From: Candidatus Sungiibacteriota bacterium
Lineage (GTDB): Bacteria; Patescibacteriota; Minisyncoccia; Sungbacterales; HO2-52-23
DNA length: 64,000 nt
Assembly: GCA_016432465.1 (NCBI GenBank)
Contig: CP066690.1
Coordinates: 250,702 to 314,701 of the forward strand
Direction: 5' to 3'
In this document: positions 8,458-63,065 of the stretch, in pieces
Layout: each line of letters opens with the position of its first letter
Position numbering within the stretch: the first letter of the stretch is position 1
The notes under the pieces: generated by a model
The model's input: the letters and a program-made list of their open reading frames with translations, nothing else
Told to the model about the DNA's origin: nothing
Databases searched by the model: none
Translations under genes and position numbers: made by a program

Positions 8458-9357
8458 GTGATAAAACGCATTCTAGCCCTTGTTCTTTTACTTTTTGCGG
8501 CCGGAGCCGGTCCCAGCTTCGCACTTCCGGATATTTTATATACCTATGCCGCTGGTCAGGGTGATAAGTCTGAAAAAAATCCTTCTCTAGCCGGCTTTGG
8601 CGGGCGAGCGTTAACGCTTTGTGTGGAAAAAACGGATCAGAAACTTAATGACATGTCGGTGCGAGATATATCTGACTTGTATAATGAGCGGAGAGTAACC
8701 CTGCCTGACCAGAAAATGCCCGGTTTTGTACGAAACGCCTGCCAACGGGGTCTTCAAGATTTTTTTGGTGAGCTTGAATTTGTAAAAGATATTGCCCGGT
8801 GGCTTGATAGAAACCTTAAATATCTTGTACGAGACCAGCTGGTTATCAGAAAAGATGACGGGAGAACAGATGTGCTTCTGGCGCCGAGCTCTAAAGAACT
8901 TCGGCAACCAACCAGATTTCAGGCAAGATTTAAATTCGGCGTTGACACTGACGGACACAAAATACAAGAGAATAGTTTGGACGGAATAATCACCCCGTCC
9001 TTCAAGTTGAATCTGAACTATGAGAAAGTGGAGTTTAAGCTTCGGCTAAATCCCGTACGACAAACGCTAAACGCCACCTTCGGCCTTGACCATTATCTCT
9101 TTGGGGCTTTGCGTCCTAACCTTGAATACAAAATACGACCCCATGAAGATAATCGCCAAATTTTTGAGATTGGATTTCTGGTTAAACCTGTCCTACCGGA
9201 AGTTGATGTCAGAATGATTACCCAAATTGTTCCCGAAAGACCATCGCATAATCACTTCTCCGGAGTTGGTTTGGTTTGGAAGCTTGACCACTGGGAGTGT
9301 TGGATTGCTCCCTCCTCCTGTCCAAATAAATCCCCCCACCTTCCCACGGGGTTTTGA
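8458..9357 (+). CDS. secreted hypothetical protein (signal peptide); C-terminal ~10 codons and stop supplied by a MITE copy
   Basis: N-terminal MIKRILALVLLLFAAGAGPSFA signal-like segment; the ORF reads into the repeat at 9327. Confidence 0.5.
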   Translation: MIKRILALVLLLFAAGAGPSFALPDILYTYAAGQGDKSEKNPSLAGFGGRALTLCVEKTDQKLNDMSVRDISDLYNERRVTLPDQKMPGFVRNACQRGLQDFFGELEFVKDIARWLDRNLKYLVRDQLVIRKDDGRTDVLLAPSSKELRQPTRFQARFKFGVDTDGHKIQENSLDGIITPSFKLNLNYEKVEFKLRLNPVRQTLNATFGLDHYLFGALRPNLEYKIRPHEDNRQIFEIGFLVKPVLPEVDVRMITQIVPERPSHNHFSGVGLVWKLDHWECWIAPSSCPNKSPHLPTGF

Positions 9358-9436
9358 ACCCTGCGGGAAGGATTTATACGGCACCCATTCATCCCCGCAG
9401 CAAACTGCGGGGTCTTCTAGGAGGGTGGGGGGATAA
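9327..9436. mobile_element. MITE-like palindromic element with TIR ATCCCCCCACCTTCCCA, copy 1
   Basis: terminal inverted repeats AAATCCCCCCACCTTCCC ... GGAGGGTGGGGGGAT; homologous to 38199-38326, 49238-49366, 51536-51643 and 62838-62892. Confidence 0.7.
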
Positions 9437-9525
9437 ATAGTCATCATGATAACATCCGTGCCTCTGGCGCGGATTTAAGTTGAAATAAATTAAAAATCAT
9501 GATATTCTGTCAGACATAACCTTGG

Positions 9526-11976: not shown

Positions 11977-12020
11977 CGGCGTTGTGGCTGACACGGGAGT
12001 CTGTCCCGCTGGTAGACGGC

Positions 12021-12093: not shown

Positions 12094-12099
12094 TTAGCC

Positions 12100-20127: not shown

Positions 20128-20505
20128 TTAACGCTTCCTTTCCATCTCTCCCCAGGGATGGGGACGTTCCTTCGCATCAATGAGTTCTCTAAAGTGTTCG
20201 TGTCCTAGGCCAAAGTAATGCTCTAAACTTTTTCTCCCTTCAGGATTGGCAGAATGCACTCGTAACTCTGGATTTTCAGCAAATATTTCAGGGTGTGTTT
20301 CTGTTAACCATTTTGCTATCTCCCATCCTTCCATTTCTCCTTCGCCTAAGTCATTATCAAAACTCAAACCCTCAATTTTTTCTCCCTCTGCCAATGCCTT
20401 TTCTAGTACCCCCTGAAACTCTGTGAAATTCTTAACGCCAACCCAACCTTCGGGTTTCCAGTCTTTCCTTTCGGTTTCAACAAGATCATCTAAAAATATT
20501 TTCAT
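20128..20505 (-). CDS. hypothetical acidic protein
   Basis: most plausible start is MKIFLDD (ATG at 20505); the upstream extension of the ORF overlaps a tRNA-Phe fragment. Confidence 0.4.
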   Translation of the reverse strand: MKIFLDDLVETERKDWKPEGWVGVKNFTEFQGVLEKALAEGEKIEGLSFDNDLGEGEMEGWEIAKWLTETHPEIFAENPELRVHSANPEGRKSLEHYFGLGHEHFRELIDAKERPHPWGEMERKR

Positions 20506-20737
20506 AGTTAAAATGCTTAACGAAGTTAAAGAGTTGCGGCCAGCGGTAATCGAAACCGCGTCTGTTCCTTGGCAAGGAACCGTTCTACCACTAAACCATG
20601 GCCGCAAATAATAATGTATGCCGGAGGTCGGAATCGTCCCGCACAAATTGCTGCGCAATTTAACGGGGTTGCTGTTTGTTGCCAAAATTTTATCGCAGGT
20701 GCTCAAAATTTTGGACAAACAGGGAAAACTCCCGACG

Positions 20738-36327: not shown

Positions 36328-37707
36328 CTACTCTACCTCTTTCCAGTATTTTAAGTCGGCACCGCCTACGGAACCGGAAGAAAACTTGGTATTAACAAGG
36401 TTGCCGTTATATTCAACCGTGGCGCCGTTTTCAAGATGAACCTTGTACCCGACAAGGCTCGTGGCCGTCACGTTATTGTGAAGATAAATCATACCGGAAG
36501 AAGCATAAAATATGGCGCCGGTTGCGTTATTATGAAGATCAATCACAGAGTCGTGATGGCCTCCGCCGGAAGCGGTGGTAAGAAGCATAAGAAAACTGCC
36601 TGCCGTGCCCGATCCTTGAAAAAGTCCATTATTTTTAATATGCATCCAGCCGTCAGACATAAGCACGCCGGACTTATCTCCAAAAGAGGAATCAAGACGC
36701 ACGGTTGATCCATTATCAATAGTCACGTTGCATTTTACCCATACTATCCCTTTGAGAACCAGCACTTGGTTGTTGTCTAAAAGAAGATTGGTTTCTATTA
36801 CTCCGCCGTTCAGGGTATAGGGATTAGTTGGAGGACTCCAGTCCTGACTGCAGGAGCCTGAAGCAACCGTACCAATGACTTGTGCCTCCTGTTTCCACTG
36901 AGTAACCGTAGCGTCAGACACAGAAAGAGGAACCGGGGCGGGATTGGAAGGGGGTGGTGTATTTGGAAATTGCTGGCCAAGAATCAAGGTATCGGGATCA
37001 ATTATTTGGTAATAGCCGTCTCCGTTAATTAACGAGGCTTTTAATTCGTTGGCGTGCGCTCCCAACCCAATTACCGAAGCGTCTATCAGGGTGGTGGAAG
37101 AGGCATAACCATCTACTACGCTTGCCGTTATTAAGTTGGCCTGTGCGTTTCCATTTACAACCCCTTTATCAATTTTGGAAGTTCCTGCGGCCACGGCATT
37201 GCCGGTAATGGTGGAGTTCGTTGTTCCAATAATATGTCCGTTGGAATAAACACTTCCTTTAACAGTGGAGTTAGACATCATCTCCAATCCTCCTGCTCCA
37301 ACCTGCGCTCCATAAAGAAGTGGAACATCGGCAGACGAGGCAATTTCAATAAGGGCTTCCAGATTTTTCTGTGATCTGCCAAGTTTTCCTTCGGAGCGTA
37401 TAGTGCGCTGACTGCCCAGCGTAGTAACTGTCGTTGTGCTTGTGCCATTGCCTACGATAAGGGTTTCGCTTCCGCCAACTTGTTTTCCACTCACCAAACG
37501 ATAGATCACGTCCTCAAGGCCGCCCTCGGCAATGTACTTCGCCCCAAGAGAGCGGTTGAAAACACGACTGGTATTTACTTCCTGAAAAGAAAAAAAGGCA
37601 AACCCGCCTATTATGGTGAGTGAGACAATCACCGTGATCATGGTTACAGTGAGGGCCGCCCAACCGCGTTGTGATCTTAAAATAAACATAAAATCAATAA
37701 TTACCAC
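36328..37707 (-). CDS. large pilus-associated protein (PilX/minor-pilin-like) with beta-helical repeat region
   Basis: N-terminal hydrophobic helix after a basic stretch; G/N/A/V-rich repeats (GNAVAAGTSKIDKGVVNGNAQANL...). Confidence 0.45.
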   Translation of the reverse strand: MVIIDFMFILRSQRGWAALTVTMITVIVSLTIIGGFAFFSFQEVNTSRVFNRSLGAKYIAEGGLEDVIYRLVSGKQVGGSETLIVGNGTSTTTVTTLGSQRTIRSEGKLGRSQKNLEALIEIASSADVPLLYGAQVGAGGLEMMSNSTVKGSVYSNGHIIGTTNSTITGNAVAAGTSKIDKGVVNGNAQANLITASVVDGYASSTTLIDASVIGLGAHANELKASLINGDGYYQIIDPDTLILGQQFPNTPPPSNPAPVPLSVSDATVTQWKQEAQVIGTVASGSCSQDWSPPTNPYTLNGGVIETNLLLDNNQVLVLKGIVWVKCNVTIDNGSTVRLDSSFGDKSGVLMSDGWMHIKNNGLFQGSGTAGSFLMLLTTASGGGHHDSVIDLHNNATGAIFYASSGMIYLHNNVTATSLVGYKVHLENGATVEYNGNLVNTKFSSGSVGGADLKYWKEVE

Positions 37708-38422
37708 GAAGCGCCGTAGTTGAGGTTAAACTAATAGAGCTTGTAAATTTGGGGCGGGCATAACTTACTTCAACGGTCATACGGACTGCTTCCCGCCCCA
37801 ACCCCTGCGACAAACGTTCCAACCGGAATTTATTAATTTTTACGGAGGCGGCAGAAATGGGAATGGCGGACTGCCCCTCTTGACGCAGCCAAAGCCTGCC
37901 GTTATCAACATAATAATCAACGTAGGCCGCGGCGTGCCCAGCCTGAACCCCAACAACCGTTATCAAAGAAAGCTGGCCGGAATCAATGTTAAAACGGCTC
38001 GTGGGAGAATAAATCTCTCCTGATTGGGCCAGTGACTTGGTTATCGTTTCCAGTAGCAGGCGGCCGTTGGAAAGAACTTCCCGTTCGGCCCGCGCCCGAT
38101 AATAAGCGTTAACCGTATTTATGAAAGAATTCACCACAAAAACAAGAAGCAGGCCCAAAAGCGCCACATAGATTATTATCTCAATAAGGGTAAGCCCTTT
38201 ATCCCCCCACCTTCCCAGAATACCCGCAGCTTGGGAAGTCAGACTTCCCTTGCTGCGGGGATGAATGGGCGCCGTAGAAATCCTTCCCGCGGGGTCCAAT
38301 ACCCCGCTGGGAAGGTGGGGGGATTTATTTTGGCGGTTAATCCTGATCATAGATTTTAAATCCAAAGTCATATTGATCCAGAAGCTGTCCGGAATCACTG
38401 GGGTTAGAAAGCCGACCAACAT
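37694..38422 (-). CDS. type IV pseudopilin (prepilin-type N-terminus KG|LTLIEIIIYVALLGLL) with MITE-derived 5' extension
   Basis: class III signal motif G-LTLIE with E at +5; the roughly 55 codons upstream of the motif lie within MITE copy 2. Confidence 0.6.
   Translation of the reverse strand: MLVGFLTPVIPDSFWINMTLDLKSMIRINRQNKSPHLPSGVLDPAGRISTAPIHPRSKGSLTSQAAGILGRWGDKGLTLIEIIIYVALLGLLLVFVVNSFINTVNAYYRARAEREVLSNGRLLLETITKSLAQSGEIYSPTSRFNIDSGQLSLITVVGVQAGHAAAYVDYYVDNGRLWLRQEGQSAIPISAASVKINKFRLERLSQGLGREAVRMTVEVSYARPKFTSSISLTSTTALRGNY
38199..38326. mobile_element. MITE-like palindromic element, copy 2 (full length, about 128 bp)
   Basis: ATCCCCCCACCTTCCCAGAATACCCGCAGC...GCTGGGAAGGTGGGGGGAT. 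Confidence 0.7.
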
Positions 38423-43590: not shown

Positions 43591-43596
43591 ATTTTG

Positions 43597-43671
43597 GAAG
43601 CGTGGCCGAGCGGTTTATGGCGCTGGTCTTGCCCGCCAGAGGCGGGTCCGCCTTTGGCGGAAAAACTACTT
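43597..43671 (+). pseudogene. tRNA-Ser-like 5' half fused to the 40-nt double-hairpin repeat (copy 1)
   Basis: GGAAGCGTGGCCGAGCGGTTTATGGCGCTGGTCTTGCCCGCCAGAGGCGGGTCCGCCTTTGGCGGAAAAACT has no T-arm or 3' acceptor. Confidence 0.5.
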
Positions 43672-43929
43672 ATGGCTATAACATACATTTTATTTAGTTC
43701 CAGTTGCGGTAAATTTTATGTTGGTTCTTCACGAAATGATAATATACGGGTTCGCCTTTCTGCCCACAATGCCGGACGAGTAAAATCTACTAAATCCTAT
43801 AGACCGTGGACTATTGTTACAACAGAAAAACTTCAGAGCTATTCTGATGCCAGAAAAAGAGAACTGTTTCTCAAGTCAGGTGTTGGGCGAAAATTGATAG
43901 CAGAGAAATTTGGATTTTTGAAAAGTTAA
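43672..43929 (+). CDS. GIY-YIG nuclease-domain protein (UPF0213/YhbQ-like), copy 1
   Basis: YILFSS..GKFYVGSSRN...RLSAHNAG....T....PW.IV..E......A..RE..LKS..GR pattern; real start at MAITYIL. Confidence 0.65.
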   Translation: MAITYILFSSSCGKFYVGSSRNDNIRVRLSAHNAGRVKSTKSYRPWTIVTTEKLQSYSDARKRELFLKSGVGRKLIAEKFGFLKS

Positions 43930-43950
43930 TATGTGTGGCGGGCTTGGTAG

Positions 43951-44023
43951 GGTGGCCGAGTGGTTTAAGGCGGCGGTCTTGCCCGCCAGAGGCGGGTCCG
44001 CCTTTGGCGGAAAAACTCAATAG
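43951..44023 (+). pseudogene. tRNA-Ser-like 5' half fused to the 40-nt double-hairpin repeat (copy 2)
   Basis: GGTAGGGTGGCCGAGTGGTTTAAGGCGGCGGTCTTGCCCGCCAGAGGCGGGTCCGCCTTTGGCGGAAAAACT. Confidence 0.5.
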
Positions 44024-44024
44024 T

Positions 44025-44315
44025 ATGCCCTGTATTTATATCTTATATAGCAGAAGTAAAAATAGGTTTTATGTCGGATCAACTAGAGACGATAGGCCTT
44101 TTGTGCGTTTAGACTCACACAACCATGGAAAGGTTCGCTCTACAAAAGCCGGACGGCCGTGGGCACTGACATACCAAGAGTACTACTCCAATTACCATCA
44201 AGCGAGGAAAAGAGAAATCTTCTTAAAATCCGGTGTTGGTAGGACTTGGATTAAAGAAAAATTTCCAAATCTAAAGAACGACGGCGCCGGAGCGGAGACG
44301 TGGGTGAGTGGCTGA
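44025..44315 (+). CDS. GIY-YIG nuclease-domain protein (UPF0213/YhbQ-like), copy 2
   Basis: MPCIYILYSRSKNRFYVGSTRDD...RLDSHNHGKVRSTKAGRPWALTYQEYY..YHQARKREIFLKSGVGR; its 3' end overlaps tRNA-Ser(TGA). Confidence 0.6.
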   Translation: MPCIYILYSRSKNRFYVGSTRDDRPFVRLDSHNHGKVRSTKAGRPWALTYQEYYSNYHQARKREIFLKSGVGRTWIKEKFPNLKNDGAGAETWVSG

Positions 44316-46832: not shown

Positions 46833-46912
46833 TTTTAAACTTGCGCTCGTCGTTCAACGGACAGGACAGAAGCTTGCGGAGCTTCAGATAGGGGCCCGCC
46901 CCCCACCTATGT

Positions 46913-46985
46913 GTCCCCGTAGTTCAGCGGATAGAATGCCAGCTTGCGGAGCTGGAGGTCGCAGGTTCGAATCCTGCCGGGGACG
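46913..46985 (+). tRNA. tRNA-Arg (anticodon GCG)
   Basis: acceptor GTCCCCG/CGGGGAC, anticodon stem CCAGC/GCTGG with loop TTGCGGA, T-arm GCAGG-TTCGAAT-CCTGC; flanked by complementary CCCCCACCTAT / ATAGGTGGGGGG; a duplicate of the anticodon arm lies at 46868-46886. Confidence 0.7.
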
Positions 46986-47025
46986 TATAGGTGGGGGGTG
47001 AAATTCCTCTCGAGCACGTCACATA

Positions 47026-49225: not shown

Positions 49226-49237
49226 GATTATCCGTAT

Positions 49238-49366
49238 TTATCCCCCCACCTTCCCAGAATACCCTACAGCTTGGGAAGTCAGACTTCCCTTGCTGCGGGG
49301 ATGAATGGGTGCCGTAGAAATCCTTCCCGAGGGGTCCAACACCCGCTGGGAAGGTGGGGGGATTTA
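49238..49366. mobile_element. MITE-like palindromic element, copy 3
   Basis: about 95% identical to copy 2, same orientation. Confidence 0.7.
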
Positions 49367-49431: not shown

Positions 49432-51537
49432 ATGGCTGACATCCGTATCCACACCCCCATAGAGCAAGTCCCGGCCATCAGGAAAAGGATCATTCCGTCC
49501 CTGAAGCGTCTGGGTATAAAAACCATACGCGATCTTTTGTTTCATTTTCCTTCGCGCTACGAAGATTTTTCAAATTTAAAAACAGTCCAAACCCTTGAGG
49601 CCGGCGAAACGGTCACTATCCAAGGATACGTGAAAAGAGTAACCAATCGCCGGACTCCCCGAAAAAGAATGTTTTTAACCGAAGCCGTAATAAATGACGG
49701 AACGGGAAATATAAAAGCCCTGTGGTTCAACCAGCCCTTTCTCGTAAGAAACATAAAATCCGGAAACATAGTGAGTTTGTCGGGCAAAGTAGCGTGGGGG
49801 CAGGGCGGATTGTATCTTCAGAATCCTGCCTACGAGAGAATTCATAATTCAGAGTTTAAAACAACTAGTTCACAAGGAACACATACCGGAGGACTGGTGG
49901 CTATGTATCCGGAAACGGAAGGTATTTCTTCCCGCTGGTTAAGATATCTTATAAAGTCGTTCCTGAGCTTTAGGAAGGAACTTGCTGATCCCCTTCCTTC
50001 GGAGACTAGAAAAAGACACATGCTGTCCGATATTTATACGGCCTTGCAAAACATTCATTTCCCCCAAAACACACAAGAGGCGGAGGGGGCACGCCGCAGG
50101 TTTAGTTTTGAACAGATGCTTTTTATACAGCTTCGGGCCCTGAAAGAACGTATGCGCCTCAAAAAATTCAGCGCACCAGCTATTTCCTTGAATCTCCCGC
50201 TCCTGAAAAAATTTGTAAACTCTCTTCCCTATGAGCTAACCGACGCCCAACGCCGTTCCGTCTGGGAAATTGTGCAGGATATTTCCAAACCCCGCCCTAT
50301 GAACCGCCTGCTGGAAGGAGACGTAGGGTCCGGCAAAACAGTAGTTGCGGCTGCGGCTTCACTCCTTGCTATTCAGGAGGGGTACGAAGTCGCCTTTATG
50401 GCGCCGACAGAGATTCTTGCCAAGCAGCACTACTCAACGCTTGAAAAAATATTACACCCTTTTGGGGTTCGGGTTGGACTTCTTACCGGATCCGAAAAAA
50501 ACAAACGTAGTAACACCCTGCTCTGTGTAGGAACTCACGCCTTAATACAAAAAAACGCCCACTTTAAAAATCTGGGGTTGGTGATTGTTGATGAACAGCA
50601 TCGTTTTGGCGTGGAGCAACGCGCCCAGCTTGCCAAAAACAGTTCCGGTTCCCTTCCCCATTTCTTGTCTATGAGCGCCACACCCATCCCCCGGACATTG
50701 GCTCTCACCGTATATGGAGATCTTGACCTTTCTATACTGGACGAGCTGCCTAAAAACCGCAGGGAAATTATTACTAAAATTATCGGGCCCGGGAAACGGG
50801 AAGAAACATATCAATTCATCCGGGAAGGGGTGAAGCGGGGGGGACAGGCGTTTGTGATTTGCCCGAGAATAGAAGTCGGGGGTCAGGGATTGAAAATCGG
50901 AAAAATATCCCAACAGAAACTGCTTCTGGCCGACACCAAGACCGTGAAAGAGGAATATAAAAAACTATCCGAGAAAATTTTCCCGGATTTAAATGTGGGC
51001 ATACTCCACGGAAAGATGCCCGCCAAAGGCGGGTCCGCCTCCGGCGGAAAATCAAAAGAGCAAACTATGAAAGAATTCAAAGAAGGTAAGATAGATATTC
51101 TCGTCTCCACGTCGGTGGTGGAAGTAGGGGTGGACATACCCAACGCCACCATCATGGTGATTGAGGGAGCGGAAAAGTTTGGGCTGGCCCAACTTCATCA
51201 ATTTCGCGGTCGTGTGGGCAGAGGCGAACATCAATCTTACTGCTTCCTTTTTCCCACCGAGAATGGACTTGTAACCAAGCGGCTTAGGGCAGTGGTGGAG
51301 GCCAAGAACGGGTTTGAACTGGCAGAAAAAGATCTGGAAATCCGGGGGCCGGGAGACTTATTTGGCATACGCCAATGGGGAGTTCCGGACGTTGTATTGG
51401 CTGACATAAACAATGCCCGCCTGGTACGGGAAGTACGCGTTGCGGCCTTGGAGCTTATTAAAAAAGACCCTTCTTTGACCGGCTACCCCTTACTTTTGGA
51501 AGAACTCAAGCGCAGCCACACCCTTCATCTTGAATAA
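49432..51537 (+). CDS. recG: ATP-dependent DNA helicase RecG (carries an in-frame 12-aa repeat-derived insertion)
   Basis: wedge domain N-terminus; helicase motif I GDVGSGKT, motif II DEQHRFG; 701 aa; residues PAKGGSASGGKS are encoded by the double-hairpin repeat at 51017-51056. Confidence 0.9.
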   Translation: MADIRIHTPIEQVPAIRKRIIPSLKRLGIKTIRDLLFHFPSRYEDFSNLKTVQTLEAGETVTIQGYVKRVTNRRTPRKRMFLTEAVINDGTGNIKALWFNQPFLVRNIKSGNIVSLSGKVAWGQGGLYLQNPAYERIHNSEFKTTSSQGTHTGGLVAMYPETEGISSRWLRYLIKSFLSFRKELADPLPSETRKRHMLSDIYTALQNIHFPQNTQEAEGARRRFSFEQMLFIQLRALKERMRLKKFSAPAISLNLPLLKKFVNSLPYELTDAQRRSVWEIVQDISKPRPMNRLLEGDVGSGKTVVAAAASLLAIQEGYEVAFMAPTEILAKQHYSTLEKILHPFGVRVGLLTGSEKNKRSNTLLCVGTHALIQKNAHFKNLGLVIVDEQHRFGVEQRAQLAKNSSGSLPHFLSMSATPIPRTLALTVYGDLDLSILDELPKNRREIITKIIGPGKREETYQFIREGVKRGGQAFVICPRIEVGGQGLKIGKISQQKLLLADTKTVKEEYKKLSEKIFPDLNVGILHGKMPAKGGSASGGKSKEQTMKEFKEGKIDILVSTSVVEVGVDIPNATIMVIEGAEKFGLAQLHQFRGRVGRGEHQSYCFLFPTENGLVTKRLRAVVEAKNGFELAEKDLEIRGPGDLFGIRQWGVPDVVLADINNARLVREVRVAALELIKKDPSLTGYPLLLEELKRSHTLHLE
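51017..51056 (+). repeat. 40-nt double-hairpin repeat, copy 4, inserted in frame inside recG
   Basis: GATGCCCGCCAAAGGCGGGTCCGCCTCCGGCGGAAAATC versus the consensus CTTGCCCGCCAGAGGCGGGTCCGCCTTTGGCGGAAAAACT. Confidence 0.65.
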
Positions 51538-51643
51538 ATCCCCCCACCTTCCCAGCGGGGTATTGGACCCCGCGGGAAGGATTTCTACGGCGCCCATTCA
51601 CCCCCACAGCTTGCTGCGGGGTATTCTGGGAAGGTGAGGGGAT
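51536..51643. mobile_element. MITE-like palindromic element, copy 4 (opposite orientation, internal deletion)
   Basis: AAATCCCCCCACCTTCCCAGCGGGGTATTGGACCCCGCGGGAAGG...GGGAAGGTGAGGGGAT directly after the recG stop. Confidence 0.7.
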
Positions 51644-51684
51644 AAAATTAAAACACGGCTCTGTGACAGCCGTGCTTCGGAAAC

Positions 51685-53015: not shown

Positions 53016-54566
53016 CTAAACAATGAGCCGTTCCTTAAGAATTTTTTTAATTAGTTCTTCGGCCCTACGAAGCGCTTGTGTATTACTCCTGCCCGTGGGA
53101 TCGTTATTAACTGCGGCAGGATCAAACGACATCAGTATTATGTGTGACCACGAATGTCCAAGGGGCGCAAGCAGACGATTGCGGCGCGCCTGCCTTAATA
53201 CTTCCACCCGCCAAGCAGCACGAGTGGCCGGAGGATGTTTACGTGCTTCTGCAACTTCCTCGTCGGAAAAAAGCGTTTCCACGCGGCCCGAACGTACAAG
53301 CTGCGGCCAAATTCCCCAGTCGTCCAAAGCGGTTAATTGATGGTGCAGCATTAGTAAATACTCACTAAGTGAAATTTGCTTGCCGTGATGTTCTATCCTT
53401 ACTTCATGGCAAGCATCCCACGAAGTGTTGTACTGGGCGAGCTTTTTTTCAAAAAGCAAGTATTTAAACCAGCATTCGGAAACACCGGCAAGGAGGGTTG
53501 GGTCCTGCCCCAAAAGCCGGAGAATTTCTTCAAACCGATACAGCACGTCCTGGTCTTCAGCAGTAAGAGAGAGTTTATCTGCGTTTTCCCAAATTAATTC
53601 CAGATACCGCCTTTGAACTTCAAGGGCCGTGAGGGTTATGGCCGAAGCAAAATGTATGGGGGTTTTAAGTGTCGGATCACACGCTAAAATATGAAAGTCG
53701 TTAAGAATTTCTCTGTACTGATATGTCTCAAACCTAGGAAAACAGCGCGGAAAGCAGTTGTTGGCTAGGAGCCGTAGAACCAAGCTGGTCATGCCAGCTT
53801 CTACGTAAGTAATGGTGTCAGAAAGCAAGGGATCGCCCTCAATAAGCTGCAGACGCTTCCATTGGGGTAAATCGTATGATTTGTAATCTGAAAAACGGCC
53901 TGTACAGATAAGTGGACGGCGAACCGTGGTTTCACTTGAAATAGTCCCCTGAATTGCCAGCGCCCGCGGAGAAAGAGTAAAAATAATTTCCTTATCGGAG
54001 TTTGGCCAAGAGTCCAAATTTTTAGGTCCGTACAAACGAGGAGCAATGCCGCCCTGTCCTGCCCAAACAACCTTGGTCACCAGAAACGGGCCAAGATAAC
54101 TAAGCAAAAATTCGTTGGGAATACGTTGCGGTATGCGGAAATTACGGTGCAAACCCCACCAATTACCACGCCAATCGGTGCTAGCCTTTAAAAGGTGGTA
54201 CGAACCCTGCGGCAGGGAAAATCGTTTGGGGTTTTGGCAAACTCTTAAAAATCGGCCTAGAATTTCAGCATCAGCGGCGCGGCTGTAAAGTGCGGCCTCA
54301 CGCGCCCCACGGCATTCCGGCGTAGCTGCCTCCAAATGGTGATAAAAACCACGCCTCAACTCTTGAGATACACGCAGCGGATGATCAATATAAATGCGGC
54401 CGCCCATGGAATTTTCATAATCAAGAACGCGATGGTCTATTAAACATTCAGTGGCTTGTTTTAAAACAGTGCGGTAAGTCAGTTCGGGTAAGGACGTGCC
54501 GTCTTCGGGGGTAAAACTTATAGCAAATTCCTGCTCAAAACCAATAATAACGTCTTCGGGCAACAT
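53016..54566 (-). CDS. Pup-ligase/deamidase (PafA/Dop) family protein, paralog 3
   Basis: N-terminal IIGFEQEFAI (compare PafA IMGIETEFG), ATPECRG (compare PafA ATAECDS), C-terminal SDEEVAEARKHPPATRAAWR (compare PafA [22 protein letters not shown]). Confidence 0.7.
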   Translation of the reverse strand: MLPEDVIIGFEQEFAISFTPEDGTSLPELTYRTVLKQATECLIDHRVLDYENSMGGRIYIDHPLRVSQELRRGFYHHLEAATPECRGAREAALYSRAADAEILGRFLRVCQNPKRFSLPQGSYHLLKASTDWRGNWWGLHRNFRIPQRIPNEFLLSYLGPFLVTKVVWAGQGGIAPRLYGPKNLDSWPNSDKEIIFTLSPRALAIQGTISSETTVRRPLICTGRFSDYKSYDLPQWKRLQLIEGDPLLSDTITYVEAGMTSLVLRLLANNCFPRCFPRFETYQYREILNDFHILACDPTLKTPIHFASAITLTALEVQRRYLELIWENADKLSLTAEDQDVLYRFEEILRLLGQDPTLLAGVSECWFKYLLFEKKLAQYNTSWDACHEVRIEHHGKQISLSEYLLMLHHQLTALDDWGIWPQLVRSGRVETLFSDEEVAEARKHPPATRAAWRVEVLRQARRNRLLAPLGHSWSHIILMSFDPAAVNNDPTGRSNTQALRRAEELIKKILKERLIV

Positions 54567-54618
54567 AAAACCACCCGGTTTTCAGGAACTAGTTATAGCA
54601 TAGGAGTGTTTAGAAATT

Positions 54619-56268
54619 TTACAAGCTTTGGTGCTGATTACTCCGGGGATTGCGTAATTTTGGCGTCACCCAAAAACTCATGTATTTCCCCAGCATTAAA
54701 CGAGTTTGCGCGTCAATCCCCGGAACAGAACCAAAAGTAATAATAGTCAGGGGAAGAAACGCCCACTGCAATATCATAGAAAGCCAAAGATACTTTTTTT
54801 TATGGGGCGGGCGGGGCGGAAGAAGAGAAGAAGAAATAATAGCAGAGGTTATAATACCAGCCATGGAAAGCGTCATTAAAAGTCTGGTAATACGCGGGAG
54901 ATTATAAGAAAGAACTGTCACGTTAAATTTGGCGCCGCCAAGAATCAGGGGCAGCCAACCCAGAAGAAAAATAATCAGGGCGTTGGTCGCCCAAGACCAA
55001 AAACCCTCAAGTTGTACAAAAGACCAGTAAAGCTTTGGACGAAAAGAGATTTTTTTATTTTTTAGAAAACCAAACACAAGATACGGAAAATTTTCCACTC
55101 CCCAGCCCCAACGCCGCTGTTGTTTATATACATTTTTAACGGTCTCCCCCAATGTACGTCCGACGTTGGCATCCATGGAAACCGGATAAAAAAGCGGGAC
55201 CGTCCTCCAGTCTCCGTCATAAAAAAGAAGCGACTGCCAAAAAATACGGGAGTCTTCGGATACAATGTTGGTTTGCCAATAGTTCATTTCAACCAAGGGC
55301 TTGAGCGGTATGGAATGCGAAGAAAACGTGGAAAGACGCTCGGCTCGCGCCTGCTGCATCATCTGCCAAAAAGTGCCGGAGGAGGCCACCACTCGCGAAA
55401 AAAAAGGCGCATCCCAAATGTTGTTATTATAAATAGGAATCGGCTGATAAGAGGAGCGAAGCGGATGCGCGGTTGTCAGATAATGATATGTTATTACCCC
55501 GAAATAATGCGGATAAATGCGTGTATCAATGTCAAAAGATGAAACTAAAACCTGCTCGTATTGAATTCCCAGACTATCAATAATTTTTTCTTTGGCCTCT
55601 CTTGCGGCCCATGTTTCGTTGGCCCCCTTCCCCGGAATTTCGCCCGCAATATCAGTCGGGTGCTCGCTTATTATAAATTTAAAAAAGGACCTGCTAAATT
55701 CCTGTCCAAGGCGACTGGCTATGAATCTTGCTTCCTCTCCGGCCCGCTCCTCTACGCCCAAGACTAAAATAATTTTATCTTTAGGGTAATGCGCCTGTTG
55801 GATCGCTTCCAGAGATCCGCGCACCACCCCATACGGCTCTTTATAAAAGGGTAAAATAACCAGATGGTAGATATCGCGCCAGTTTTCTACTTTAAGTTGC
55901 GGGTTGTAAGCCCTAATCTCCTCAAGTTTCGCCAACCAGTCCAATTTTAAATGCTGCTTCATCTTTTTGTAGCTGGCGCGGAGATGCCAAGATAGAAATA
56001 TGGTTTTGAGAAGCCAGTAAGCGTCAAAAATAACAATAAAAAGGCTCGCCGCAGCCGGTGCGCGCCAGGAAATAAAAATAATACCGGCCAGGGTGGCCCA
56101 GAGCATTATGCCGGGAACTGTTTCCAAAAATCTAAAAAGGTAGTATCCGCGTGCTAACGAAACATCAGCGGCCCGTCCCAATCTAAAGTAATTTTTTTTC
56201 TCCATGGTACGTTTAGCGTTACATATTGAGTTATAAAAATCAAAAATGTCGGGAGTAAAACCCGACAA
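54619..56268 (-). CDS. membrane-integrated family-2 glycosyltransferase (processive, cellulose-synthase-like)
   Basis: QxxRW motif (YKQQRRWGWG); D,D-type GT-A core between N- and C-terminal TM bundles; 549 aa. Confidence 0.65.
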   Translation of the reverse strand: MSGFTPDIFDFYNSICNAKRTMEKKNYFRLGRAADVSLARGYYLFRFLETVPGIMLWATLAGIIFISWRAPAAASLFIVIFDAYWLLKTIFLSWHLRASYKKMKQHLKLDWLAKLEEIRAYNPQLKVENWRDIYHLVILPFYKEPYGVVRGSLEAIQQAHYPKDKIILVLGVEERAGEEARFIASRLGQEFSRSFFKFIISEHPTDIAGEIPGKGANETWAAREAKEKIIDSLGIQYEQVLVSSFDIDTRIYPHYFGVITYHYLTTAHPLRSSYQPIPIYNNNIWDAPFFSRVVASSGTFWQMMQQARAERLSTFSSHSIPLKPLVEMNYWQTNIVSEDSRIFWQSLLFYDGDWRTVPLFYPVSMDANVGRTLGETVKNVYKQQRRWGWGVENFPYLVFGFLKNKKISFRPKLYWSFVQLEGFWSWATNALIIFLLGWLPLILGGAKFNVTVLSYNLPRITRLLMTLSMAGIITSAIISSSLLPPRPPHKKKYLWLSMILQWAFLPLTIITFGSVPGIDAQTRLMLGKYMSFWVTPKLRNPRSNQHQSL

Positions 56269-56293
56269 GATTGCGATTAAACGGCGGATAAAC

Positions 56294-57985
56294 TCACCAA
56301 GCAGATCCTATCTCTCTCAAAAGGTCCTGCGGCCTTCCTTTTTCCAGCTCCCGTACCCGAAAAAGATAGGGGTTGGGATTTTGAATCGTCCTGAAAATCT
56401 TATAAGAGCCCGGCAATGAGACTTCGGCCTGACGAATAGTTATACCTTCCCAGCCGCACCCCTGCAGTGCTAAATTCTGTTTAACCCCCTCTGTCTCTAT
56501 CCAGCGGAAAATTTTTTCACGCCAGGCGGCTCTGGTATAGGGCGGAGGGTTATCAGCAGCGCGCTCTATTTCCTCCTTTTTAAACAACCGCTTAACTTTT
56601 TCCTGCTCCAGCAAAATACCGTAAGAACTTTTGTCAGTCTCTACATTGGCATACTCCACTAAAAGGTGTAAAAGATAATCTATAAGTTTAGCGCGGCCCC
56701 TACGGGTTTCCAAAGGAATATCGCGGGGTATATTTTTTTCTCCGGCGTTACGATAATAAGACGGCAGAGGGGCAATAAGTTGCTCAACTTCAAGGCCGAG
56801 TCGGGCCAAAAGCGGAGTTATACAATAGTAAAGTATGGCTGCCCAATCAAGGATCTGGGCAAGATAGGCAAGATCCCAACGGTCTAGAGCGTCAATCACT
56901 TTTTCCCAAAGCTCAAGCGCCATGCGTCGCTCCGGAGTAAGTTCCCCCCGTCCCTCATCTATATAGCGGTGCACCTCACCTATATAGAAGCGCTGAAAAT
57001 CAAGGGCGTTCCATTTTTCCCCACCAGCCAAAAAAACGACTTTTTTTGACTTTATGTCAGCGTTGAAAAAGGTCGCCCTTTCTGCAACACTATTCAATCT
57101 TCCATCTCTAATTAAAGGGAGAATCGGCAGAAATTCGTTCTCTTCAAGCAGCATAAGCATTAGATCAAAGGTGCCATATTTTAAAAAGAGCTGCCATTCA
57201 GACATATTGGAGTTTCCGGAAATGTCATGGAGTCTCCGCCAGCAGTCTTTATCCGCATGGGGCTCGTCTCTGGTATTAATAAAAGCCCTGTCTATCCCGG
57301 TAGTATCCGGGCCGTCATATTTAGTCATTAGGTTAGCGCGCTGCGAAAGGTAAAACCGTACCCATCCTCCGGCAAGTGGTTCAACCCACCCATTGCCAAT
57401 AATACAGGGGCGGGTCATAAGAAACGGTACGAGGTGTCTTCGTAAAACTTCGTAGCCAATACGCCGCGGGATCAAATAATTAGCGTGGTGACCCCATGTT
57501 TCCAGAAACCCAGACGCATTGAAGTACTCACAGTTGCGGTTACCCTTGTAAAAATGCACTTTCGGATATTGCGGTTTAAGCGTGCGGAAAAGACGCACGC
57601 CGTCAGCCACCATCTCCATGCCGGCAACTTCGTGCAGAACCGCTTCTCTGGTGCCTCTACACTCCGGGCTTGCATACTCAAGGTGGTTATTACGTTCACT
57701 ATAGCATTGTCCCTGATTGGGAAGCACAAAACGACCGCAGGTAAAACTGCGAACCGATTCAATATCCAGGGCTCCTCTTATGATACAGGCATGGATTATA
57801 CGCGATAGAACTTCACGAAGAAAAGCATTGGTGTAATATCCCGATGGCCCGATGACGCGTGTCCCGAGTTCCAGCTCCAGGCCGATGATACGGTGCTTTA
57901 TACGTTTGGGTCCGCCTCTATTGTTGACCTGACCCATAGGACCGCACTCCGCCTTGCTTATCAAAGTACATAACCATAGTAACAA
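56294..57985 (-). CDS. Pup-ligase/deamidase (PafA/Dop) family protein, paralog 2
   Basis: [12 protein letters not shown] N-terminus, [15 protein letters not shown], and [26 protein letters not shown] (compare PafA [26 protein letters not shown]); C-terminal [19 protein letters not shown]. Confidence 0.75.
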   Translation of the reverse strand: [563 protein letters not shown]

Positions 57986-58084
57986 AATATAAATAAAGCG
58001 CCAGAGCTCTGCTCTGGCTTTTGGGGCTTACTAAGACCTCTTGTACAATAACCCTTCGTAACGAAAGTTATTATGCAAAAGTCT

Positions 58085-58321
58085 TTACTCGCCACCTCTT
58101 TGTACGTAACTTCTTACAAACTCCTCCGCGTTTCCTTCCAACGTTGCATCAATATCTTCCAGAAGTTTATCCATATCTTCTTTTAGCTTCTTGCTTTTTT
58201 TCTCAGCGGCCTGACTGACTTTTTCTTCTTCGCTTTCTGGCTTGTCCTTTACTTTTTCTGCGTTCTTTTGCTCTTCCGCCACTTCTGCCTCCCTTTGGTG
58301 GCCCTTATTGAAGTTTAACAC
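58085..58321 (-). CDS. pup: Pup-like prokaryotic ubiquitin-like protein ending in GGE
   Basis: 78 aa, disordered acidic/lysine-rich body; C-terminus MDKLLEDIDATLEGNAEEFVRSYVQRGGE parallels the Pup consensus ...DDLLDEIDGVLE.NAEEFVRAYVQKGGQ/E. Confidence 0.75.
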   Translation of the reverse strand: MLNFNKGHQREAEVAEEQKNAEKVKDKPESEEEKVSQAAEKKSKKLKEDMDKLLEDIDATLEGNAEEFVRSYVQRGGE

Positions 58322-58357
58322 AGCGCCGTAAATAATGCAATCCGATATCCAATAGAT

Positions 58358-60220: not shown

Positions 60221-60272
60221 GTGTAACCACAGCCGAAAGAAAAATCCACCCTAGGGGGTGGATCAATTGATT

Positions 60273-62837: not shown

Positions 62838-62892
62838 TAAATCCCCCTCCTTCCCAGCAGGGTATTGGACCCCGCGGTAAGGTGGGGGGATA
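62838..62892. mobile_element. MITE-like element, copy 5 (55-bp deletion derivative retaining both TIRs)
   Basis: AAATCCCCCTCCTTCCCAGCAGGGTATTGGACCCCGCGGTAAGGTGGGGGGATAAA. Confidence 0.6.
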
Positions 62893-62895
62893 AAA

Positions 62896-62935
62896 ATGGG
62901 TGCGCTTGGATTTGAACCAAGGACCTACGGATTAT
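62896..62935 (-). pseudogene. tRNA 3' fragment (T-arm CTTGG-TTCAAAT-CCAAG plus acceptor 3' strand) without a detectable 5' half
   Basis: minus-strand ...GGTCCTTGGTTCAAATCCAAGCGCACCCA; no complementary acceptor 5' strand within 150 nt. Confidence 0.4.
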
Positions 62936-63065
62936 ATCTTCGCTTCGCTCGATATAAACGGTTCGCTCGGACAAAATGAAAGATTGCTTTCATTTTCTCC
63001 TCGCTGCCGTTTATAAGACGCAAGCTCTAACTTCATCCCCCACCTATTTTGGACAAGATAAAAAA

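What the first reader, a model, noticed from the sequence alone, without database searches (positions are those of the whole stretch)
38199..38326. MITE-like 110-130-bp palindromic element family (five copies) with TIR ATCCCCCCACCTTCCCAG
Copies at 9327, 38199, 49238, 51536 and 62838 have terminal inverted repeats and internal sub-hairpins. Two are in each orientation, and one is a 55-bp deletion derivative. No transposase gene is present. The copies sit at gene boundaries: the C-terminus of 8458-9357, the 5' end of the pseudopilin gene 37694-38422, and both flanks of recG.
Basis: seen in the sequence. Interest (0 to 1): 0.55.

Follow-up and report, generated by a model that had tools for sequence, protein, structure and literature searches.

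The report
In-frame palindromic selfish DNA repeats
A hairpin-forming selfish DNA repeat of about 105 bases, present five times in this Sungbacteria (candidate phyla radiation) window and in dozens of related groundwater genomes, always sits at TTTA in one orientation and adds a multiple of three bases when inside a gene, so it persists even inside essential genes (here in the leader peptide of a pilin), much like the palindromic elements of Rickettsia.

Summary
Five copies carry the terminal inverted repeat (10 matches against 0.06 expected), and a covariance model finds no others in the window.

The family is neither local nor a segmental duplication. At least 46 distinct copies occur in metagenome contigs and Sungbacteria/Parcubacteria MAGs.

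All 46 copies read TTTA|TCCCCCCACCTTCCC...GGGAAGGTGGGGGGA|TTTA(TT), with the flank orientation locked to the internal sequence.

The inserted length (core plus 4) is a multiple of three in 37 of 46 copies. It is so in 22 of 22 copies inside ORFs but only 15 of 24 outside.

Nearly half of the copies lie in frame inside real genes, including DnaE, LigA, MurB, MurD, Mfd, RecG, Fpg, a sortase and a prepilin peptidase. They are read in three different frames and are absent from the closest homologues.

The flagged copy (38202-38323) is a 42-codon in-frame insertion in a type IV pilin leader. Removing it restores MIRINRQNKG|LTLIE.

No transposase was found, there is no terminator-like orientation bias, and no Rfam family matches.

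Best reading: a non-autonomous, Rickettsia-RPE-like coding palindrome. It is probably moved as single-stranded hairpin DNA by a strand-specific enzyme that was not seen. I found no published description of it.

In passing: cassettes with related termini carry whole tRNA genes and sit inside disrupted resident tRNA genes.

The parts
38198..38327 (+). Copy 2, the flagged copy. TTTA (38198-38201), 122-nt core (38202-38323), TTTA (38324-38327). It lies in frame in the leader-peptide region of the pilin gene on the minus strand. The insertion totals 126 nt, or 42 codons.
   Evidence: 98.8-105 bits. The Pfam N_methyl motif starts only at ORF residue 75. Homologous pilins have short leaders without this segment.
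38233..38250 (+). Nested 18-nt hairpin extension (GGGAAGTCAGACTTCCC plus T) in the loop of hairpin A. It is present in copies 2 and 3 only; the equivalent in copy 3 is at about 49273-49290.
   Evidence: Alignment A1 and folds.
37694..38350 (-). Type IV pilin-like (pseudopilin) gene carrying copy 2. The start is taken as ATG 38350 (MIRINRQNK...); NCBI calls the start at 38371 (MTLDLKSM...). The predicted processing site is G|LTLIE, just downstream of the element.
   Evidence: (P0124, annotated as a prepilin-type protein).
9327..9437 (-). Copy 1. TAAA, 103-nt core (9331-9433), TAAA. Its period is not a multiple of three. It sits at the 3' end of ORF 8458-9357, changing the C-terminus from ...PNK* (old stop TAG at 9438-9440) to ...PNKSPHLPTGF*.
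   Evidence: 110 bits.
49237..49366 (+). Copy 3. TTTA, 122-nt core (49241-49362), TTTA. It is intergenic, between two terminator-like hairpins upstream of recG.
51535..51646 (-). Copy 4. TAAA, 104-nt core (51539-51642), TAAA. The recG stop codon TAA (51535-51537) lies in the left flank repeat. A convergent aminotransferase gene ends at 51685.
   Evidence: 108.6 bits. Logan contigs from the same organism all break inside this copy.
62838..62894 (-). Copy 5. TAAA, 49-nt deletion derivative (62842-62890), TAAA. It abuts the 3' end of a disrupted tRNA-like gene.
   Evidence: (26 bits).

Best explanation
This is a family of non-autonomous selfish palindromic DNA elements. It is the counterpart, in candidate-phyla-radiation bacteria, of the Rickettsia palindromic elements.

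Shown by the data:
- Each unit consists of a 15-18-bp perfect terminal stem (TCCCCCCACCTTCCC / GGGAAGGTGGGGGGA) that encloses two conserved hairpins.
- It lands at TTTA (extended preference TTTA^TT), always in the same orientation relative to that site.
- It adds core plus 4 nt. The canonical additions are 105 or 108 nt.
- This length is a multiple of three, and five of the six reading frames are often free of stop codons. Copies that land inside genes therefore become in-frame peptide insertions of 12 to 42 residues.
- These insertions are translated, not spliced out, and are tolerated where they fall in loops or dispensable segments.
- In this window, copy 2 lengthened a pilin leader peptide from about 10 residues to about 52. 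Copy 1 rewrote a C-terminus. Copy 4 used the TAA of recG as part of its target.

Inferred:
- Prepilin peptidase would remove the enlarged pilin leader, element-encoded part included.
- Mobilisation occurs in trans, on the folded TTTA-reading strand as single-stranded DNA. The enzyme would be strand-specific, of the IS200/IS605 TnpA or RAYT (HUH) type, and is not encoded in the window. The element would insert 3' of TTTA and carry its own terminal TTTA.

I put that last step at only about 35-40%. The identity of the family as a selfish coding palindrome is much firmer.
For: Multi-copy and widespread:
-.
- A second locus in the same 923-kb Sungiibacteriota genome carries it (P0122, locus tag HYW89_04705).
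- Assemblies of the same organism break inside the copies.

Lineage-specific, as expected of a mobile element:
- There are no copies in 58.5 kb from three related Sungbacteria loci.
- Only 1 of 119 RecG homologues carries an insertion, and no LigA homologue other than the query's own protein does.

Insertions relative to homologues:
- LigA has a 36-aa insert absent from 8 close homologues. RecG (P0021) has a 35-aa insert absent from 7.
- Fpg residues 1-38 and 78-307 align to MutM 1-38 and 45-274.
- The flanking Ile codon is duplicated at the junctions, as expected if ATAAA is repeated.

Host genes are genuine: DnaE, MurB, MurD, LigA, Mfd and a histidine kinase.

Frame constraint: every copy inside an ORF has a period that is a multiple of three (22 of 22), against 15 of 24 outside ORFs (Fisher p = 0.0016). 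Three different frames are used, so no particular peptide is being selected.

Tolerance: in the AlphaFold2 model of LigA, only residues 171-199, which are the insert, have pLDDT below 50 within an otherwise confident fold.

Orientation lock and flank logo.

Structure is conserved: 14 of 28 base pairs show changes on both sides, and no shuffle out of 500 reaches the observed value. A decayed copy in L087 still has compensatory changes in its terminal stem.

Strand asymmetry: on the TTTA-reading strand there are 63 G:U pairs against 20 A:C pairs, and 46 against 14 in the structure-blind MAFFT alignment. Copies show no orientation bias relative to transcription. This argues that the folding matters in DNA rather than in RNA.
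Against: - No transposase of any kind was found. None is in the window. A crude IS200-type motif screen found none in about 590 kb of fetched loci. No longer element bounded by the same termini was seen.
- IS200/IS605 elements typically lack long perfect terminal inverted repeats.
- The data cannot tell a true 4-bp target duplication from an element-borne terminal TTTA.
- No filled/empty pair of orthologous sites was obtained at the nucleotide level. The closest relatives are only about 68% identical in protein.
- The G:U over A:C asymmetry counts alignment cells, not independent events, and could reflect a mutational bias.
- One orthologous copy is identical between two strains whose flanks are 86-95% identical. 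This could hint at selection for a host function.
- Translation of the inserts is inferred from open frames, not observed.
Confidence: 0.7

Rival explanations
1. It is a classical MITE. A deletion derivative of a DDE-type insertion sequence would be moved by cut-and-paste as double-stranded DNA. The transposase would bind the terminal inverted repeats, and staggered cuts would generate a true 4-bp target-site duplication of TTTA.
For: - Perfect 15-18-bp terminal inverted repeats are by far the most conserved part of the element.
- There are 4-bp direct repeats on both sides.
- The inserted length equals core plus 4.
- Deletion derivatives keep both terminal repeats, down to a 32-nt minimal palindrome.
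Against: - With symmetric ends and a non-palindromic target, both orientations relative to TTTA are expected. Only one is seen, in 46 of 46 copies.
- No parent element was found.
- The conserved internal hairpins with covariation and the strand-asymmetric wobble pairs have no role in this model.
Confidence: 0.2
2. It is a host-functional structural element comparable to REP/BIME sequences. It would act as a transcription terminator, an mRNA-stabilising hairpin or a protein-binding site, and be kept by selection for that role rather than by mobility.
For: - Many copies lie just after genes. In one orientation the stem is followed by UUUAUU.
- The structure is conserved with compensatory changes.
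- An orthologous copy is identical between strains whose flanks have diverged.
Against: - There is no orientation bias relative to the adjacent gene's 3' end: 10 forward against 13 reverse.
- About 45% of copies are inside coding sequence, including essential genes.
- The family is absent from 58.5 kb of three related genomes and from nearly all orthologues of the host genes.
- No Rfam family matches.
Confidence: 0.06
3. It is an intervening sequence. The long terminal stem would be recognised in the transcript and the element cut out, with the ends rejoined, in an intron-like or RNase III plus ligase pathway. The host proteins would then never contain the insert.
For: - The terminal stem brings the two junctions together.
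- The window encodes a LigT-like RNA ligase/phosphoesterase and a cyclic-phosphate-processing receiver-domain protein.
- Related cassettes sit inside tRNA genes.
Against: - If the element were removed from the RNA, neither a length that is a multiple of three nor stop-free frames would be needed. Yet all 22 copies inside ORFs have such a length and an open frame, while 9 of 24 copies outside ORFs have drifted off it.
- Decayed copies such as the one in L087 recG have lost most of their structure but remain in frame.
Confidence: 0.03
4. It is a recombination site, comparable to an integron attC or a dif-like site, used as a folded hairpin by a tyrosine recombinase. The copies would mark the boundaries of mobile gene cassettes.
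For: In locus L046, a 150-nt direct repeat containing the element flanks a 0.94-kb segment encoding a 287-aa protein, next to a tyrosine recombinase gene. attC sites are also structure-defined and strand-specific.
Against: - This is a single example.
- No recombinase is found in the window or near most copies.
- There is no GTTRRRY-type core.
- Copies inside housekeeping genes are not cassette boundaries.
Confidence: 0.03

Closest known systems
Rickettsia palindromic elements (RPE; Ogata et al. 2000, 2002, as summarised in PMC10969869 and PMC6649704)
   Same: Both are palindromic repeats of about 100-150 bp with no known transposase. They are scattered through small genomes. About half of the copies are inserted in frame into unrelated housekeeping genes and translated as extra peptide segments that the protein fold tolerates. 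Old copies decay.
   Different: - The host differs: Sungbacteria/Parcubacteria rather than Rickettsia.
- The termini and target are unrelated to those of RPEs. No sequence comparison with RPEs could be run here.
- This family has a near-invariant 15-nt terminal repeat shared across many genomes, an invariant orientation-locked TTTA flank, three reading frames in use, and size classes from 32 to 135 nt with nested hairpins.
Bacterial MITEs (Correia/NEMIS, ERIC, RUP, Coxiella QMITE; reviews PMC10969869, PMC3184786, PMC5896051)
   Same: They share terminal inverted repeats, short flanking direct repeats, a size of 50-150 bp, hairpin folds, and occasional in-frame fusions with ORFs (ERIC, QMITE1).
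   Different: Known MITEs use palindromic or variable targets (for example TA) and insert in either orientation. Many have an identified parent insertion sequence. Here the target is asymmetric, the orientation is fixed, and no parent is known.
IS200/IS605-derived miniature elements (PATEs) and REP/REPIN-RAYT systems (HUH Y1 enzymes acting on single-stranded hairpins). This comparison rests on my own knowledge of IS608 and REPIN biology.
   Same: They share strand-specific, orientation-locked placement next to a fixed tetranucleotide, subterminal hairpins about 20 nt from the left end and about 10 nt from the right end, and structure that matters on one strand only.
   Different: - Those elements normally lack long perfect terminal inverted repeats.
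- REPs are extragenic and carry GTAG or CGTC tags in inverted, not direct, arrangement (PMC3733652).
- No Y1 or RAYT gene was found in the sequence available.

Membership tests
Rickettsia palindromic elements (RPE-like coding palindromes) | Dispersed palindromic repeat of about 100-150 bp able to form a stable hairpin | tested here: met
   Five copies in the window and at least 46 distinct copies elsewhere. Fold z-scores are -5.7 to -8.8 for the four long copies. Covariation is shown.
Rickettsia palindromic elements (RPE-like coding palindromes) | A large fraction of copies inserted in frame in unrelated protein-coding genes, absent from orthologues | tested here: met
   22 of 46 copies are inside ORFs. 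Hosts are confirmed by Pfam. Inserts are absent from homologues.
Rickettsia palindromic elements (RPE-like coding palindromes) | Sequence homology to one of the described RPE families, and occurrence in Rickettsia | tested here: not met
   The host is a Candidatus Sungiibacteriota MAG. No RPE sequences were available for direct comparison, and Rfam holds no matching family. This is therefore an analogue, not a member.
MITE (DDE transposon-derived) | Terminal inverted repeats and small size without coding capacity for a transposase | tested here: met
   15-18-bp perfect terminal repeats; core of 32-135 nt.
MITE (DDE transposon-derived) | Target-site duplication flanking each copy | tested here: inconclusive
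   TTTA is present on both sides in at least 45 of 46 copies, and the insertion size equals core plus 4. Because the repeat is always the same sequence and orientation, it could instead be the target plus an element-borne end.
MITE (DDE transposon-derived) | Insertion in either orientation with respect to the target; an autonomous parent with the same termini exists | tested here: not met
   Orientation is locked in 46 of 46 copies. No longer element with these termini appears in 590 kb of loci. There are no hits in the viral, plasmid or phage collections. The complete host genome could not be scanned.
IS200/IS605-type or REP/RAYT-type (HUH, single-strand) elements | Fixed tetranucleotide next to the left end, single orientation, subterminal hairpins, one active strand | tested here: met
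   Flank logo, hairpins A and B with covariation, and G:U 63 against A:C 20 on one strand.
IS200/IS605-type or REP/RAYT-type (HUH, single-strand) elements | A Y1 HUH transposase or RAYT encoded in the genome | tested here: inconclusive
   None was found among the Pfam hits in the window or by a crude motif screen of the fetched loci.
REP/BIME | Extragenic location and GTAG or CGTC head tag | tested here: not met
   About 45% of copies are inside ORFs. The ends are TTTA/TCCCCCC. The tag definition is taken from PMC3733652 (abstract).
Intrinsic transcription terminator | Located after genes, with the U-tract downstream in the direction of transcription | tested here: not met
   Orientation relative to the adjacent gene's 3' end is 10 forward against 13 reverse, and 22 copies are inside ORFs.

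The most novel reading that the evidence does not exclude
The terminal motif TCCCCCCACCT may mark a previously unrecognised hairpin-DNA mobility system in candidate-phyla-radiation bacteria, with two kinds of passenger.

1. The coding palindromes described here.

2. Cassettes of about 105-125 nt that carry a complete tRNA gene between related inverted repeats. These cassettes sit inside, and functionally replace, the resident tRNA gene of the same identity. Three cases are in this window:
- Arg-GCG at 46843-47018.
- Ile-UAU at 62897-63179.
- Val-UAC at 4810-4975, where the flanking repeat has a different sequence.

Such a cassette would be a selfish tRNA replacement cassette. It destroys an essential gene and supplies the substitute, so the cell cannot lose it.
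Probability: 0.2. Interest if true: 0.85.

Novelty: new variant of a known kind. Interest (0 to 1): 0.62.

Why it matters
Protein-coding palindromes have been treated as a peculiarity of Rickettsia; PMC6649704 lists only a few cases of stable structures inside coding sequence. An analogous and apparently undescribed family in the candidate phyla radiation shows that the phenomenon recurs in another lineage with a reduced genome. Here it sits in DnaE, LigA, Mur ligases, Mfd, RecG and a pilin leader.

The family also offers a much cleaner system for working out the mechanism. It has an invariant terminal repeat, an invariant orientation-locked TTTA, a clear selection signature for lengths that are multiples of three, and many size variants.

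There are practical consequences too:
- These repeats break metagenomic assemblies.
- They add 12-42-residue insertions to annotated CPR proteins.
- They can shift annotated start sites, as in this pilin.

Tried and rejected
- **Rfam.** Neither the gathering threshold over the whole window nor a permissive E-value search on the element gave anything beyond tRNAs and noise.
- **Origin from a tRNA.** Hairpin B resembles a T-arm, and the covariance model weakly hits tRNAs. Alignment scores against all 16 tRNAs in the window are no better than shuffles, so this was rejected or at best remains unproven.
- **Terminator function.** Rejected because orientation is unbiased.
- **Functional peptide module.** Rejected because three frames and both orientations are used.
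- **Search for an autonomous parent.** Unpaired terminal-repeat hits are chance matches or ends of contigs. A crude motif screen found no IS200-like enzyme and only two tyrosine recombinases. The viral, plasmid and phage collections are empty.
- **Reaching the rest of the source genome.** Exact-protein look-ups for recG, PilC and P0122 failed. Only Logan contigs that break at the repeats were found.
- **Peptide-based census.** A concatenated three-frame peptide query returned only 10 proteins. Indels between subfamilies scramble the internal peptide, so this is a lower bound.
- **Nucleotide-level empty sites.** None was obtainable. The nearest LigA and RecG relatives are 64-69% identical, and homologous contig pairs all carry the element.
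- **Splicing together the outer tRNA-Ile halves.** This gave no clean tRNA.
- **Literature.** Searches linking CPR, Parcubacteria or Patescibacteria with MITEs or palindromic elements found nothing relevant.
Full report
**1. The observation**

The 18-mer ATCCCCCCACCTTCCCAG, allowing up to 3 mismatches, occurs 10 times in the window as five inverted pairs. Shuffled sequence gives 0.06 on average. Reading the sequence and aligning the copies gives five units:

| Copy | Core | Length | Orientation |
|---|---|---|---|
| 1 | 9331-9433 | 103 nt | reverse |
| 2 | 38202-38323 | 122 nt | forward |
| 3 | 49241-49362 | 122 nt | forward |
| 4 | 51539-51642 | 104 nt | reverse |
| 5 | 62842-62890 | 49 nt | reverse |

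The 122-nt forms differ from the 104-nt form by a nested 18-nt hairpin in the loop of the first internal hairpin. The 49-nt form is a deletion between internal direct repeats.

All copies fold much better than shuffles. The z-score is -5.7 to -8.8 for the four long copies and -3.8 for the short one.

I built a covariance model from 28 full-length family members and ran it without filters. It finds these five copies and nothing else convincing in the window. The next hits are ordinary intergenic hairpins.

The orientations are 2 forward and 3 reverse. The copy flagged as lying at the 5' end of the pilin gene is in fact inside that gene.

**2. Where the window comes from and how widespread the family is**

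RecG from the window is 100% identical to a protein of a Candidatus Sungiibacteriota MAG on a 923,469-bp contig. This places the window in the Parcubacteria, part of the candidate phyla radiation (CPR).

An exact-pattern scan of one genome per species found one full copy, in a Parcubacteria MAG (L002). A scan of metagenome contigs found 74 stretches, of which about 46 are distinct, genuine copies. Most come from groundwater and aquifer samples.

A second locus of the same genome, HYW89_04705, also carries a copy. Logan contigs of the same organism begin and end inside copies, as expected of a repeat that breaks assemblies.

The family is patchy. Three related Sungbacteria loci that were not chosen for the element (58.5 kb) hold none. 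Viral contigs, plasmids and phages hold none. Rfam has no matching family.

**3. Anatomy across the family**

The outer 15 nt (TCCCCCCACCTTCCC and its complement) are almost invariant. The interior diverges but keeps two hairpins.

On the 41-sequence model alignment, 94.9% of cells are paired and 14 of 28 pairs show changes on both sides. No shuffle out of 500 reaches these values, and structures slid by 1-3 columns fall to about 50% paired. The structure-blind MAFFT alignment gives the same picture.

Size classes run from a 32-nt minimal palindrome through 41, 59, 62, 74, 101, 104 and 122 nt up to 135 nt. The larger forms carry further small hairpins nested in loops.

Every copy is flanked by TTTA on both sides, in direct orientation. 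Upstream of the left TTTA the sequence is random. Downstream of the right TTTA there is a preference for TT, seen in 40 and 33 of 46 copies at the two positions.

I defined orientation from the internal sequence alone. The flanks then read TTTA...TTTA in all 46 informative copies and never TAAA...TAAA. The two apparent exceptions were scoring ambiguities, resolved by eye.

**4. The key finding: in-frame residence in genes**

About 16 copies lie inside long open frames that extend 40 to more than 800 codons on both sides. With a simple gene model the figure is 22 of 46.

Pfam identifies the host ORFs as:
- DNA polymerase III alpha
- MurB
- a MurD-type ligase
- NAD-dependent DNA ligase
- Mfd
- a histidine kinase

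.

Database proteins carrying the element-encoded peptides include:
- Fpg
- a D-Ala-D-Ala carboxypeptidase or beta-lactamase family protein
- a class D sortase
- a phosphoribosyltransferase
- a prepilin peptidase
- a methyltransferase with two copies

.

Three reading frames are used:
- INPPTFP...EGGGI(K/N), reading the element in reverse orientation
- NKSPHLP...GRWGDK, also in reverse orientation
- FIPPPS...GKVGGFI, in forward orientation

These segments are insertions relative to homologues:
- LigA P0280 has 36 extra residues, absent from its 8 closest relatives.
- RecG P0021 has 35 extra residues, absent from 7 relatives.
- Fpg P0121 aligns to MutM 1-38 and 45-274 on either side of the segment.
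- At the junctions the Ile codon is duplicated (...PLNI[NPPT...GGGI]NEK). This is what repeating ATAAA, the complement of TTTAT, predicts.

An AlphaFold2 model of the LigA has mean pLDDT 84.8. The only long low-confidence stretch is residues 171-199, which is the insert. It is modelled as an unstructured excursion between well-predicted elements.

**5. Length constraint**

The distance from the left TTTA to the right TTTA is the amount of DNA added. It is a multiple of three in 37 of 46 copies (binomial p of about 7e-11, though the copies are not independent).

The split is sharper. All 22 in-ORF copies have such a length, including the eight length variants of 36 to 99 nt. Outside ORFs the figure is 15 of 24, and the nine exceptions are off by small indels (Fisher p = 0.0016).

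This is the signature of purifying selection on reading frame. It shows that the inserts are read through by the ribosome rather than removed from the RNA.

**6. The five window copies in this light**

*Copy 2.* It lies in the ORF 37694-38422 on the minus strand. The Pfam N-terminal methylation motif starts only at ORF residue 75. Removing the 122-nt core plus one TTTA (126 nt, 42 codons) turns

MIRINRQNK-SPHLPSGVLDPAGRISTAPIHPRSKGSLTSQAAGILGRWGDK-GLTLIE

into MIRINRQNKG|LTLIE, a canonical short basic prepilin leader.

A search of 1.84 billion representative proteins found 872 relatives of the mature part. The closest, at 44-60% identity, have plain leaders such as MKDKNKKLKDKSG|FSLIE. None of the 17 N-termini I read (the closest relatives and those with long leaders) has the insert.

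By inference, prepilin peptidase would remove the whole enlarged leader, so the mature pilin would be unchanged.

*Copy 1.* It is 103 nt, so its period is not a multiple of three. It sits at the very end of ORF 8458-9357. The pre-insertion reading ...CCA AAT AAA TAG (PNK*) became ...PNKSPHLPTGF*.

*Copy 4.* It uses the TAA stop codon of recG as the first three bases of its TAAA flank.

*Copies 3 and 5.* Both are intergenic.

The apparent preference for gene boundaries therefore has two causes. The target AATAAA/TTTATT is common at stop codons and in AT-rich spacers. Most insertions inside genes are also removed by selection.

**7. How it most likely works**

*Shown:* multi-copy, lineage-specific insertion at TTTA(TT); a fixed orientation; addition of core plus 4 nt; retention in genes only when the frame is preserved.

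*Not a terminator:* orientation relative to the adjacent gene's 3' end is 10 forward against 13 reverse.

*Not a selected peptide:* three frames are used.

*Not an intron:* see section 5.

The orientation lock is hard to reconcile with a symmetric cut-and-paste transposase acting on perfect terminal inverted repeats. It is what enzymes acting on one DNA strand produce. From my own knowledge, IS200/IS605 TnpA inserts the left end 3' of a fixed tetranucleotide, recognises subterminal hairpins on the top strand only, and makes no duplication. Here hairpin A starts about 21 nt from the left end. Hairpin B ends about 12 nt before the right TTTA.

A strand asymmetry fits this reading. On the TTTA-reading strand, one-sided changes give G:U (G:T) wobbles 63 times against A:C 20 times. 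The MAFFT alignment gives 46 against 14. Copies have no preferred orientation relative to transcription, so the selected fold would be in DNA rather than in mRNA.

I therefore favour mobilisation in trans as single-stranded hairpin DNA by an HUH-type or similarly strand-specific enzyme. I put only about 35-40% on that step, for these reasons:
- No such enzyme, nor any transposase, was found in the window.
- A crude motif screen of about 590 kb of related loci found none.
- IS200-type elements do not normally have long terminal inverted repeats.
- The wobble counts are not phylogenetically independent.

The two tandem small GIY-YIG nuclease genes at 43594-44315 are the only nuclease candidates nearby. 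Nothing links them to the element.

**8. Comparison with known systems**

The closest known phenomenon is the Rickettsia palindromic element. The reviews I read (PMC10969869; PMC6649704) describe it as palindromic repeats, inserted in frame in many unrelated genes, compatible with protein folding, with an unknown mechanism, and one of very few cases of stable structures inside coding sequence.

The present family behaves like an RPE but is not a member. The host phylum is different, and no sequence relationship could be tested.

It meets the descriptive criteria of a MITE. It fails the expectation of orientation-independent insertion, and no parent has been found.

It resembles IS200/IS605-derived miniature elements and REPINs in its strand and orientation logic. 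It differs from them in having terminal inverted repeats and in residing inside genes.

Five full-text searches that combined CPR, Parcubacteria or Patescibacteria with terms for MITEs or palindromic elements found no description.

**9. A related oddity seen in passing**

The first 11 nt of the terminal repeat (TCCCCCCACCT) recur in inverted repeats that bracket whole tRNA genes.

*tRNA-Ile(UAU), 63065-63138, minus strand.* It lies between TCCCCCCACCTATTTTGGAC and its complement. The whole 125-nt unit sits in the D-loop of a second tRNA-like gene, whose 5' part is at 63179-63161 and 3' part at 62936-62897.

*tRNA-Arg(GCG), 46912-46986.* It lies between CCCCCCACCTAT and ATAGGTGGGGGG, inside the T-arm of another tRNA-Arg(GCG)-like gene.

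Three observations bear on these nested genes:
- The outer Arg gene is the orthologue of the ordinary tRNA-Arg(GCG) that relatives carry upstream of recG.
- The inner Arg gene has a different sequence.
- Removing 104 nt in silico restores a sequence that ARAGORN calls tRNA-Arg(GCG).

*tRNA-Val(UAC), 4866-4939.* It is nested in the same way, between different repeats.

These look like cassettes that disrupt a resident tRNA gene and supply a replacement. I could not establish this, and I report it as a lead rather than a finding.

**10. Verdict**

The feature is real. It is a mobile-element family, not a regulatory RNA. Its notable property is in-frame colonisation of genes in a CPR lineage, including the pilin leader at the flagged coordinates. 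I rate it a new variant of a known kind, of moderate to high interest. Its mechanism is unresolved, but the data narrow it considerably.

Noticed in passing
window 62897-63179 (minus strand); inner tRNA 63065-63138; inverted repeats 63160-63141 and 63054-63036: An intact tRNA-Ile(UAU) lies between 18-20-bp inverted repeats that begin with the element's own terminal motif (TCCCCCCACCT). The whole unit sits in the D-loop of a second tRNA-like gene whose acceptor halves (GGGTGCG...CGCACCCA) are about 280 nt apart. That outer gene also carries a further palindromic insert of about 80 nt near its anticodon loop. Its layout matches the ordinary tRNA-Ile(UAU) of relatives.
   Followed up: partly
window 46843-47018; inner tRNA 46912-46986; inverted repeats 46899-46910 and 46987-46998: An intact tRNA-Arg(GCG) between CCCCCCACCTAT and ATAGGTGGGGGG is inserted in the T-arm of a resident tRNA-Arg(GCG). 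The resident gene is orthologous to the one relatives carry upstream of recG. Removing 104 nt in silico restores a sequence that is called as tRNA-Arg(GCG). The inner tRNA has a different sequence from the outer one. This may be a tRNA replacement cassette.
   Followed up: partly
window 4786-4975 and 11990-12120; locus L053:3440-3680: tRNA-Val(UAC) (4866-4939) is bracketed by a 13-bp inverted repeat (CCCCGTTAGAAAT) inside the anticodon region of another tRNA-like 5' half (4810-). tRNA-Cys (12021-12093) is bracketed by a 10-bp repeat. In another groundwater contig, tRNA-Ala(CGC) is bracketed by a 12-bp repeat next to fragments of tRNAs.
   Followed up: partly
whole window: Sixteen tRNA genes are scattered singly through 64 kb. 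They include tRNA-Ile with anticodon UAU, which is unusual in bacteria; relatives L084 and L085 have it too.
   Followed up: no
window 3584-4156 (minus) and 20128-20718 (minus): A LigT-like 2'-5' RNA ligase/2H phosphoesterase gene and a gene with a cyclic-phosphate-processing receiver domain (cREC_REC) both lie next to tRNA genes. They may be relevant to RNA repair or processing of the nested tRNAs.
   Followed up: no
window 43594-43929 and 43935-44315 (plus): Two tandem small GIY-YIG nuclease-domain genes lie immediately upstream of tRNA-Ser(UGA). A similar 85-aa GIY-YIG gene is in the related locus L085. These are the only nuclease candidates near the repeats, and no link to them has been shown.
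   Followed up: no
window 53016-62201 (minus): A cluster of three Pup-ligase family genes (PafA/Dop-like) plus a proteasomal-type AAA ATPase, conserved next to recG in related Sungbacteria loci (L079, L085, L086). This is a pupylation-like system in a CPR genome.
   Followed up: no
RecG homologues P0054, P0055, P0062, P0066, P0073, P0085: Several Sungbacteria RecG proteins are 842-907 aa long and carry an extra PF13366 (PD-(D/E)XK, GxxExxY) domain. This is a different, much larger insertion into the same gene family.
   Followed up: no
L046:3549-4789 and 4841-5674: A 150-nt direct repeat (97% identical) contains a 95-nt copy of the element plus the 5' end of its host gene. It flanks a 0.94-kb segment encoding a 287-aa protein, next to a tyrosine recombinase gene.
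   Followed up: partly
L018:2216-2350 and L056:815-1001: Small perfect hairpins with CCCCCACACC...GGTGTGGGGG arms, flanked by a TGAA direct repeat, are nested inside copies of the main element at its GATGAA site. The tRNA cassettes are also followed by TGAA. This may be a second, related hairpin family with a different 4-nt target.
   Followed up: no
L022:2402-2442 versus L036:487-527: An orthologous in-ORF 41-nt copy with its flanking repeats is 49/49 identical between two strains whose 300-nt flanks are 95% and 86% identical (P of about 0.008 under uniform divergence). This hints at conservation or homogenisation of the element.
   Followed up: partly
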